A stretch of DNA of 64,000 bases from Escherichia coli (lineage in GTDB: Bacteria; Pseudomonadota; Gammaproteobacteria; Enterobacterales; Enterobacteriaceae), in NCBI RefSeq assembly GCF_044324875.1, contig NZ_CP172185.1; one strand, given 5' to 3'. The notes under the pieces were generated by a model. That model saw only the letters and a program-made list of their open reading frames with translations, searched no databases and had not been told where the DNA came from. A program made the position numbers and the translations under genes. This document shows positions 63,029 through 64,000 of this stretch, in pieces (the first letter of the stretch is position 1; each line of letters begins with the position of its first letter).

Positions 63029-63062
63029 AGGTTCTTTCAACCATCTGATACTGAAGATTTTT

Positions 63063-63081
63063 ATGGCCGGATAAGGCGTTT
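63063..63081. repeat. Half of a REP palindromic unit (GGCCGGATAAGGCGTT) interrupted by the IS3-family element
   Basis: The sequence immediately 5' of the IS end matches the reverse complement of the 3' half of the E. coli REP consensus (...GAACGCCTTATCCGGCC); the other half would lie beyond the window. Confidence 0.45.
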
Positions 63082-64000
63082 TGAACTGAACCCCAAAACC
63101 TGGACAGTTTCAGTTAACCGGCTTTTTGATGCTCAGTCCGGTATTCTACCGGACTGAGTCCCCCAAGACTGAGTTTTATTCTTTTTTGATTCCAGTAAGT
63201 TATGTATTCGTTAACGGCATTTTCCAGCTCTTCTACATTTCTGTAGTCCCGGCGATAGTACATTTCTTCTTTCAGGTGACCAAAGAAGTTCTCCATTACC
63301 GCATTATCAAGGCAGTTGCCCTTGCGCGACATGCTCTGCACTAACCCTCTGTCCGCCAGGGCGGACTGATAACTTTTTATCCGGTAATGCCATCCTTGAT
63401 CACTGTGGAGCAGCGGTTTCTCCCCTTCAGCAAGGCTTTCCAGCCCCTTATTTAACATCCGCTTCACCAGCTCCTCTGTAGGCCTGCAGGCCGTTTCCCA
63501 CGCCACGATTTCCCCGTTAAACAAATCAAGTATCGGGGACAGGTACAGTTTTTGTCCGCCAGCCCTGAATTCGGTGATATCTGTCACCCATTTCTCACAG
63601 GGAGCTTCCGCTTTGAACTGCCGCTGAAGGATATTTTCTGCAGCGAGTCCCATATTTCCCCGGTAAGACCGGTATTTCTTCAGGCGCACAGGAGACTTCA
63701 GGCCGAGCTGTTGCATCAGTTTTCGCACCGTTTTGCCACTGAACTTAAGACCTCTTTTCTGAAGCTCACAATGGATCCGCCGGTACCCATAACATCCCCG
63801 GTGTTCATGGAAGATGGAGGCTATGAGCTGTTTCACATCAGCATACTTGTCCTTAGCCTTCTGCAGTGACAGCTGGTAGTACAGCGTGCTTCTGGCCAGC
63901 CCTGCAGCCTTTAACAGGTCAGACTGGCAGTGTCCGCACCTCAGGCTCCGGATGACTTTCGTTTTTTCTCCAGCTCCTGGCGCTTTTTTTCCAGGAGATG
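63082..64000 (-). mobile_element. IS3-family insertion sequence (IS150 group, possibly IS1397-like), right end and orfB; element continues past the window end
   Basis: Terminal TG at 63082; orfB with DDE motifs; A7G slippery frameshift motif on the coding strand near 63975-63990, typical of IS3 orfA/orfB; insertion within a REP unit is the known target preference of IS1397. Confidence 0.8.
63114..63836 (-). CDS. IS3-family transposase OrfB (integrase core); the true frame extends further upstream to the frameshift site
   Basis: 240-aa ORF from its first Met with DDE-type integrase core (WVTDITEF..., HSDQGWHY..., NAVMENFFGHLK) resembling IS150-group OrfB. Confidence 0.85.
   Translation of the reverse strand: MKQLIASIFHEHRGCYGYRRIHCELQKRGLKFSGKTVRKLMQQLGLKSPVRLKKYRSYRGNMGLAAENILQRQFKAEAPCEKWVTDITEFRAGGQKLYLSPILDLFNGEIVAWETACRPTEELVKRMLNKGLESLAEGEKPLLHSDQGWHYRIKSYQSALADRGLVQSMSRKGNCLDNAVMENFFGHLKEEMYYRRDYRNVEELENAVNEYITYWNQKRIKLSLGGLSPVEYRTEHQKAG

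What the first reader, a model, noticed from the sequence alone, without database searches (positions are those of the whole stretch)
63055..64000. IS3-family element inserted into a REP palindromic unit downstream of topB (IS1397-like targeting)
The 17 bp preceding the IS end (GGCCGGATAAGGCGTT) match half of the E. coli REP consensus and stop abruptly at the IS terminus (TGAACTGAACC...). IS1397, an IS150-group IS3 member, is known to insert specifically into REP units. The OrfB here is IS150-like, and an A7G frameshift motif is visible at the window edge.
Basis: partly seen in the sequence, partly recalled or inferred. Interest (0 to 1): 0.55.

Follow-up and report, generated by a model that had tools for sequence, protein, structure and literature searches.

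The report
IS1397 inserted in a REP hairpin
The window ends inside a copy of IS1397, a known E. coli insertion sequence that targets REP hairpins; it sits in the loop of the REP between topB and gdhA, a rare insertion at this site but ordinary behaviour for this element.

Summary
It can be sharpened: the element is IS1397 itself, not merely IS1397-like.

- **Identity.** Window 63082-64000 holds 919 of the 1432 bp of the element, on the minus strand. It is 100% identical to copies that RefSeq names 'IS3-like element IS1397 family transposase'.
- **Anatomy in the window.** A 25-bp terminal inverted repeat, an open OrfB reading frame (rve and HTH_21 domains, 51% identical to IS150 InsK), the end of orfA, and the A AAA AAG -1 frameshift motif at 63983-63989.
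- **REP half.** The 17 bp before the IS end (63065-63081) are the left arm plus loop of a REP hairpin. That hairpin is intact (GGCCGGATAAGGC-GTTT-GCGCTGTATCCGGCAC) between convergent topB and gdhA in 1514 complete E. coli genomes.
- **Far junction.** It lies outside the window. In four other genomes with IS1397 in this same REP, the far side carries the complementary half.
- **Other loci.** Every other IS1397 copy examined also sits in a REP centre, and all seven complete ones have 3-4 bp duplications.
- **Rarity.** Only 3 of 5426 complete genomes carry the insertion at this site. Differing junctions, both orientations and 2.7-3.7% flank divergence suggest at least four independent hits.

REP targeting by IS1397 was shown experimentally in 1999-2003, so this is already known.

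The parts
61073..63028 (+). topB (DNA topoisomerase III), the gene upstream of the insertion. Its stop codon lies 36 bp before the REP half.
   Evidence: The ORF is listed. The orthologous CDS is annotated topB. The exact 651-aa product is widespread in the collection.
63065..63081 (.). Left arm plus loop bases of the split REP / palindromic unit (GGCCGGATAAGGCGTTT). The last 3-4 bases (GTTT/TTT, 63078-63081) are the presumed left copy of the target-site duplication.
   Evidence: The empty site GGCCGGATAAGGCGTTTGCGCTGTATCCGGCAC is seen. It folds as a hairpin at -12.8 kcal/mol, z = -4.1. The half is the exact reverse complement of the REP31 half.
63082..64000 (-). IS1397, nucleotides 1432 down to 514 of the 1432-bp element. 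The remaining 513 bp, with IRL and most of orfA, lie beyond the window edge.
   Evidence: 100% identity over 919 bp to RefSeq copies annotated 'IS3-like element IS1397 family transposase'. Full-length copies are 1432 bp.
63082..63106 (-). Right terminal inverted repeat (IRR), TGAACTGAACCCCAAAACCTGGACA. It matches IRL at 21 of 25 positions and has the TG...CA ends typical of the IS3 family.
   Evidence: IRL/IRR alignment on a full-length copy. The terminus occurs once in the window.
63114..63998 (-). orfB reading frame (catalytic part of the OrfAB transposase). It is open through all 294 codons in the window, and the coordinates include the stop codon at 63114-63116.
   Evidence: Translation without internal stops. 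NF033516 at 330 bits. rve, rve_2 and HTH_21 domains. 51% identity to IS150 InsK.
63983..63989 (-). Programmed -1 ribosomal frameshift heptamer A AAA AAG. With the preceding A at 63990 it forms the A7G run.
   Evidence: The register in the orfA frame, with orfB in the -1 frame, is shown. RefSeq annotates the CDS of identical copies as 'programmed frameshift'. The predicted downstream RNA structure is not significant, z = -1.7.
63941..64000 (-). Last 19 codons plus the stop codon of orfA, the DNA-binding/regulatory protein. It overlaps orfB.
   Evidence: orfA is 173 aa, IS positions 52-570, with its stop at 571-573, on the full-length copy. The window coordinates were mapped by arithmetic from the IS end at 63082.

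Best explanation
This is a copy of the insertion sequence IS1397 (IS3 family, IS150 group). It transposed into the loop of the single REP (palindromic unit) that lies between the convergent genes topB and gdhA.

Shown here:
- The element's identity, its IRR, its open orfB and its A AAA AAG frameshift site.
- The REP half abutting the IS end.
- The intact REP at the empty site in related genomes.
- The complementary REP half at the far junction of other genomes hit at the same REP.

Inferred from IS3-family biology and from the IS1397 literature as cited in PMC1525189:
- A -1 frameshift fuses OrfA to OrfB to give the DDE transposase.
- The element moves by copy-out/paste-in through a circular intermediate.
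- The transposase itself recognises REP DNA and integrates into the hairpin centre, duplicating 3-4 bp (here GTTT or TTT).

By analogy with L001 and L002, the transposase gene runs in the same direction as gdhA, so it is downstream of gdhA and faces topB. The insertion splits the REP hairpin shared by the 3' ends of both genes. It interrupts no coding sequence.
For: Identity: the 919 bp in the window are 100% identical to IS1397-annotated copies, and 1709 of 5426 genomes hold a match covering at least 80% of this 919-bp stretch.

IS3-family and IS150-group features.

Empty site: the intact REP is present in 1514 genomes, and the empty site is 3 bp shorter than the query built from L001's two flanks. 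It is also intact in the closest relative. It folds as a hairpin and the insertion point falls in its 4-nt loop.

Far junction: in L001, L002 and L029 it reads IS|GTTTGCGCTGTATCCGGCAC. L029 has a clean 3-bp GTT duplication.

Other loci: seven further complete insertions are all in REP centres with 3-4 bp direct repeats. They are cyuA-yhaL, avtA-ysaA, livF-ugpB, fliC-fliA, gudD-barA, msrQ-zinT and ygcQ-ygcP. The K-12 relic and the contig ends L010 and L011 also abut a REP half. The CFT073 copy reconstructs a REP.

Literature: REP specificity was demonstrated experimentally and assigned to the transposase (Clement 1999; Wilde 2001, 2003, as cited in PMC1525189).
Against: - The far end of this particular copy is outside the window, so its own IRL, target duplication and second REP half were not seen.
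- The ISfinder reference sequence of IS1397 was not available. Identity rests on RefSeq/PGAP naming and on the 1432-bp length.
- Two of the other insertions at this REP have non-canonical left junctions that simple transposition does not predict: GTC in L001, and GTT plus an extra CAC in L002.
- The primary IS1397 papers could not be read here. Their content is taken from citing papers and from my own knowledge.
Confidence: 0.95

Rival explanations
1. The copy did not transpose in this lineage. The IS-bearing topB-gdhA segment was imported from another strain by homologous recombination, so the event here was recombination rather than REP-targeted transposition.
For: E. coli recombines frequently. 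L002 (HH45) has a mosaic topB 3' end: the best full-length empty-site matches are only 91.6% identical. No complete genome matches the window's junction at better than 99.1%.
Against: The left junction differs from all three other insertions at this site: GTTT| against GTC|, GTTCAC|, and the opposite orientation. The flanks differ by 2.7-3.7% from the other carriers, while the closest relative at 99.4% has an empty site. Even if this were true, the original event would still be a REP-targeted insertion.
Confidence: 0.05
2. The adjacency is chance: an IS3-family element with no target preference happened to land beside, or to delete half of, a REP.
For: REPs are abundant in E. coli intergenic regions. 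Tobes and Pareja counted 209-290 per E. coli genome.
Against: All 8 complete-insertion sites examined, plus the relic and the contig ends, place the IS end within the REP centre with matching halves on both sides. The empty site shows that nothing was deleted.
Confidence: 0.01
3. The REP-like half is part of the mobile element itself, that is, an IS with REP-like subterminal sequences in the manner of REPtron or IS200/IS605 elements, and not the target.
For: Identical-looking GGCCGGATAAGGCGTT flanks accompany many copies, so BLAST matches extend 16-26 nt beyond the IS end.
Against: - The flanking REP subtype differs between loci: GCCGGATAAGGCG, GCCTGATAAGACGCG and GCCGGATGCGGCG.
- The intact REP exists without the IS in 1514 genomes.
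- The inverted repeats end exactly at TG/CA, with 3-4 bp duplications of loop bases.
- The transposase is a DDE/rve enzyme, not a Y1 HUH enzyme.
Confidence: 0.01

Closest known systems
IS1397 (IS3 family, IS150 group; first described in E. coli natural isolates by Bachellier et al. 1997, with transposition into REP/PU shown by Clement et al. 1999)
   Same: The sequence is 100% identical over the 919 bp available to RefSeq copies named IS1397. Full-length copies are 1432 bp. It has the orfA/orfB layout with an A AAA AAG frameshift, TG...CA inverted repeats, insertion into the centre of a REP, and 3-4 bp duplications at other copies.
   Different: Nothing in kind differs. Only the locus is unusual: the topB-gdhA REP is occupied in 3 of 5426 complete genomes. 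This copy is seen only in part.
IS150 of E. coli K-12 (InsJ/InsK)
   Same: Same IS3-family subgroup. OrfB is 51% identical to InsK and OrfA 27% identical to InsJ. It has the same A AAA AAG frameshift logic (from my knowledge of IS150) and a similar length, 1443 bp against 1432 bp.
   Different: It is a different element at about 50% protein identity. To my knowledge IS150 is not REP-specific; the K-12 copy sits in the hokA/sokA locus.
ISKpn1 (Klebsiella pneumoniae) and ISPsy8 (Pseudomonas syringae), other REP-targeting IS3-family elements
   Same: IS3-family elements that insert into their host's REPs. Specificity is attributed to the transposase (PMC1525189).
   Different: Different hosts and REP types. 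They were not aligned here because no sequence was available in the tools used.
IS621 (IS110 family), another REP-targeting IS of E. coli
   Same: It uses E. coli REPs as targets (PMC3184786).
   Different: It has an unrelated transposase family. It recognises a 15-bp REP sequence and inserts at the REP's 3' side, outside the palindrome, rather than in the loop.

Membership tests
IS3 family | Two overlapping reading frames, orfA and orfB, with orfB in the -1 frame and a slippery A AAA AAG / A6G-type programmed frameshift site | tested here: met
   A AAA AAG is in the orfA register at window 63989-63983 (minus strand), and orfB is in the -1 frame. RefSeq annotates identical copies as 'programmed frameshift'. 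Only the last 19 codons of orfA are in the window.
IS3 family | DDE (rve / retroviral-integrase-like) catalytic core in OrfB | tested here: met
   Pfam rve 3.1e-21, rve_2 1.3e-20 and HTH_21 3.2e-17. NCBIfam NF033516 at 330 bits against a cut-off of 160.
IS3 family | Imperfect terminal inverted repeats ending 5'-TG...CA-3' | tested here: met
   IRR is in the window at 63082-63106. IRL was taken from full-length copies with 0-1 differences from the window. The two match at 21 of 25 positions.
IS3 family | 3-4 bp target-site duplication | not testable with these tools
   The far junction of this copy is outside the window. At other copies the duplications are GTTT, TTT, TAC, TTAC, TAAC, AGC, TCAA and GTT.
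IS150 group of the IS3 family | Transposase closer to IS150 than to other IS3-family subgroups | tested here: met
   OrfB against IS150 InsK: 51% identity, 309 bits. Against IS3 InsF: 32%, 112 bits. OrfA matches InsJ (27%) but not InsE. The IS2, IS51 and IS407 groups were not compared.
IS1397 | Near-identity (ISfinder convention, more than 95% nucleotide identity) to the IS1397 reference | tested here: inconclusive
   The window is 100% identical to copies that NCBI PGAP names 'IS3-like element IS1397 family transposase'. The ISfinder/GenBank type sequence itself was not available for a direct alignment.
IS1397 | Element length of 1432 bp (ISfinder value, recalled from memory) | tested here: met
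   Copies with 0-1 differences from the window over the shared 919 bp (L012, L016, L017, L002) measure 1432 bp from TG to CA.
IS1397 | Insertion into the central part of a REP / palindromic unit | tested here: met
   The left junction in the window falls in the 4-nt loop of the REP, as reconstructed from empty sites. The right junction was seen only in other genomes hit at the same REP.
REP / palindromic unit (the target) | Extragenic GC-rich imperfect palindrome of about 35 nt matching the E. coli REP consensus | tested here: met
   The empty site GGCCGGATAAGGCGTTTGCGCTGTATCCGGCAC lies in the 76-bp spacer between the topB and gdhA stop codons. It folds at dG -12.8 kcal/mol, z = -4.1. Its left half is the exact reverse complement of the REP31 right half.

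The most novel reading that the evidence does not exclude
The topB-gdhA REP may be a recurrent target that records details of the transposition mechanism. At least four apparently independent IS1397 insertions, in both orientations, are found at this one hairpin in public genomes.

One of them (HH45, L002) carries an extra CAC between the duplicated GTT and the IS end. CAC is the usual loop sequence flanking IS1397 at other REPs (GGCGTTCAC|IS). The extra triplet could therefore be the 3-bp spacer of the donor's circle junction, carried over by imprecise end cleavage. That would be a natural footprint of the copy-out/paste-in intermediate.

Alternatively it reflects short-tract gene conversion between IS-REP junctions.
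Probability: 0.12. Interest if true: 0.25.

Novelty: already known. Interest (0 to 1): 0.08.

Why it matters
It matters little beyond annotation. It is a textbook example of a target-specific IS sitting in its known target.

Practical value:
- The last 919 bp of the window should be annotated as a partial IS1397.
- The REP between topB and gdhA should be treated as split.
- The insertion is a rare strain marker, present in 3 of 5426 complete genomes, and could serve for typing.

The recurrence of hits at one REP, in both orientations, illustrates how strong the REP specificity is in natural populations.

Tried and rejected
- **Primary papers.** I tried to read the primary IS1397 papers (PMC94167, PMC95333, PMC169884, PMC135288). 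None is held. I relied on citing papers and on one supplement.
- **Species-representative genomes.** I scanned them for the exact IS terminus to collect many copies. Only 3 loci came back: E. albertii, one E. coli, and a 209-bp Chryseobacterium contig that is probably contamination. Copies were therefore fetched one by one from complete E. coli genomes.
- **The window's own genome.** I tried to recover it, and hence its far junction, through the exact TopB protein. The protein is too widespread (19249 blocks), and the places returned are 98.4-98.8% identical in the flank, so none is the source genome. This search did yield L029.
- **Rfam.** A scan of 58000-64000 found nothing.
- **Frameshift stimulator.** The RNA fold downstream of the frameshift site is not distinguishable from shuffles, z = -1.7. 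No claim is made about a stimulatory structure.
- **Orientation bias.** Bias of the IS relative to the REP arms could not be assessed. My sampling used queries containing this window's flank, which favours one orientation. Both orientations exist (L024 and L029).
- **Rejected readings.** That the REP half belongs to the element, and that the adjacency is chance (see the rival explanations).

Full report
**What is in the sequence**

topB ends at 63028 on the + strand. After 36 bp comes GGCCGGATAAGGCGTTT (63065-63081), immediately followed at 63082 by TGAACTGAACCCCAAAACCTGGACA. From there to the window edge the minus strand carries one open frame of 294 codons, 63998..63114.

That frame scores 330 bits on NCBIfam NF033516 'IS3 family transposase', against a cut-off of 160. 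It has Pfam rve, rve_2 and HTH_21 domains.

The run CTTTTTTT at 63983-63990 is A7G on the minus strand.

The quoted flank has 16 letters, and the 17th base is the T at 63081.

**Identity of the element**

A megablast of 63082-64000 against 5426 complete E. coli genomes gives 100% identity over all 919 bp to many copies that RefSeq annotates as 'IS3-like element IS1397 family transposase'. In that search:
- 1709 genomes hold a match covering at least 80% of this 919-bp stretch;
- 3485 hold some match;
- one genome has at least 40 matching places.

Copies that differ from the window at 0-1 positions (L012, L016, L017, L002) are 1432 bp from TG to CA.

On such a copy:
- The terminal inverted repeats match at 21 of 25 positions.
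- orfA (173 aa) is in frame 0 and orfB in frame -1.
- The A7G run reads GAA AAA AAG in the orfA frame, which gives the canonical A AAA AAG slippery heptamer. This maps to window 63989-63983.

The window thus holds IS positions 1432-514: IRR, all of orfB downstream of the frameshift site, and the last 19 codons of orfA.

OrfB is 51% identical to IS150 InsK (309 bits) but only 32% to IS3 InsF (112 bits). OrfA matches IS150 InsJ and not IS3 InsE. This supports the IS150-group assignment. The element is therefore IS1397, not just something like it.

**The target**

In K-12 a gene, ynjI, separates gdhA from topB. In 1514 of 5426 genomes, however, topB and gdhA are convergent neighbours separated by 76 bp.

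All five such empty sites that I read contain the right arm GCGCTGTATCCGGCAC. Four carry the whole palindrome...TTTTTATGGCCGGATAAGGCGTTTGCGCTGTATCCGGCACAATTG... (one of them with a T for the first G). The fifth (HS-02) lacks most of the left arm.

The closest relative of the window flank, TUM1223, is 99.4% identical over the 25 kb that it matches. It also has the intact palindrome.

As single-stranded DNA the site folds into a 13-pair interrupted hairpin with a 4-nt loop: -12.8 kcal/mol, z = -4.1, and 0 of 200 shuffles fold as well.

The left arm is the exact reverse complement of the right half of the E. coli REP31 consensus printed in Additional File 13 of Tobes and Pareja 2006.

The window's junction, GGCGTTT|IS, falls in the hairpin loop.

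**The far junction**

It can be run by proxy. Only three complete genomes have IS1397 at this site. A fourth carrier came from a look-up of the exact TopB protein.

| Genome | Left junction | Right junction | Note |
|---|---|---|---|
| this window | GGCGTTT\|IRR | not seen | |
| 23AR0806 (L001; OZ547223 has the same scores but was not read) | GGCGTC\|IRR | IRL\|GTTTGCGCTGTATCCGGCAC | 3-bp GTT duplication with one T>C change |
| HH45 (L002) | GGCGTTCAC\|IRR | IRL\|GTTTGCGCTGTATCCGGCAC | GTT plus an extra CAC |
| GCA_014857235.1 (L029) | GGCGTT\|IRL | IRR\|GTTTGCGCTGTATCCGGCAC | opposite orientation, clean GTT duplication; the IS is itself interrupted by an IS256-family element |

All three far junctions that can be read carry the complementary REP half.

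The flanks of the window differ from L001 by 2.7% and from L002 by 3.7%. The IS differs by 8 and 1 positions respectively out of 919. Junctions and orientation also differ between carriers, and empty sites dominate in every lineage. Four independent hits on one REP are therefore the simplest reading. I did not build a phylogeny to prove this.

**Is REP insertion general for this element?**

Seven further complete insertions were read:

| Locus | Left flank | Right flank |
|---|---|---|
| cyuA-yhaL | GTTT | GTTT |
| avtA-ysaA | TTT | TTT |
| livF-ugpB | TAC | TAC |
| fliC-fliA | TTAC | TTAC |
| gudD-barA | TAAC | TAAC |
| msrQ-zinT | AGC | AGC |
| ygcQ-ygcP | TCAA | TCAA |

In every case the two flanks reconstitute a REP. 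Three REP sequence subtypes are represented, and both orientations occur.

Two contig-end copies (L010, L011) and a relic in K-12 also abut a REP half. The CFT073 copy reconstructed in PMC1525189 does the same.

This agrees with the experimental record as summarised in PMC1525189 and PMC3184786: IS1397 transposes specifically into REPs of E. coli, Salmonella and Klebsiella, and the transposase determines the specificity.

**Mechanism**

Shown here: the parts list and the target.

Inferred from IS3-family knowledge:
- A -1 frameshift at A AAA AAG yields the OrfAB DDE transposase.
- The element is copied out as a circle with abutted ends and pasted into a REP centre, duplicating 3-4 loop bases.

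In L001 and L002 gdhA lies on the same strand as the transposase gene and immediately upstream of IRL. gdhA read-through could therefore enter orfA, and the hairpin that formerly followed both convergent genes is split. No coding sequence is disrupted. These consequences are inference only.

A predicted RNA structure downstream of the slippery site is not significant, z = -1.7.

**Comparison and novelty**

The finding is a member of a known element in its known kind of target. Nothing about its anatomy departs from IS1397.

The only unusual points are the rarity of this particular site (3 of 5426 complete genomes) and the odd left junctions in two other carriers.

Verdict:
- observation confirmed;
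- interpretation supported and sharpened;
- already known;
- low interest.

Noticed in passing
L023 1201-1289 (K-12 MG1655, downstream of yhhJ); IS remnant about 1225-1289: K-12 and roughly two thousand other E. coli genomes carry an unannotated relic: a REP half (TAGGCCGGATAAGGCGTTTA) followed by the first ~65 nt of the IS1397 IRR end at 94% identity. The relic is cut off next to the ISAs1-family element ISEc1 (yhhI). By my recollection of the primary papers, K-12 is otherwise regarded as free of IS1397.
   Followed up: partly
L002 3382-3390 (HH45) and L001 3376-3381 (23AR0806): Two other IS1397 insertions in the same topB-gdhA REP have left junctions that a simple duplication does not predict: GTT plus an extra CAC in HH45, and GTC instead of GTT in 23AR0806. 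CAC is the usual REP loop flank at other IS1397 copies. This could be carry-over of a donor spacer or short gene conversion.
   Followed up: partly
L029 8009-10763 (GCA_014857235.1): A fourth insertion of IS1397 in the same REP, in the opposite orientation, with a clean 3-bp GTT duplication. The IS is itself interrupted near its IRR end by an IS256-family (Transposase_mut) element.
   Followed up: partly
window about 39900-42600 (istA 40161-41807 +, istB 41581-42579 +): An IS21-family element (istA/istB; NF033546 and NF038214) lies in the window where strain MS 200-1 has an ISSso4-like element splitting yeaE (methylglyoxal reductase). Most relatives lack it. The exact ends were not mapped.
   Followed up: partly
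window 23084-24622 (-) and surroundings: An IS66-family transposase (NF033517, 457 bits) lies here. Closest relatives cover only 90% of 13100-38099, and one genome that covers 99% of it has an ISEc22 annotated there. So this 64-kb window carries three different IS elements. The ends were not mapped.
   Followed up: no
L003 2332-3372 (K-12) compared with L004-L008: The topB-gdhA spacer is polymorphic. K-12-type genomes have ynjI (DUF1266) between the two genes. 1514 of 5426 genomes, including the window's lineage, have only a 76-bp spacer with the single REP.
   Followed up: partly
L002 (HH45) 3000-3390: The 3' end of topB in HH45 is of a divergent allele, although the strain lacks ynjI. The best full-length empty-site matches are only 91.6% identical. 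This suggests a recombinant junction near the REP.
   Followed up: no
L009 13133-13158 (E. albertii NBRC 107761) and L011 (Chryseobacterium contig, 209 bp): The E. albertii copy of the IS1397 end abuts a different palindrome (CCGGATGATCCGG), and the element's other end was not found within 1.6 kb. The 209-bp 'Chryseobacterium' contig consists of an E. coli-type REP half plus the IS1397 end and looks like contamination.
   Followed up: no
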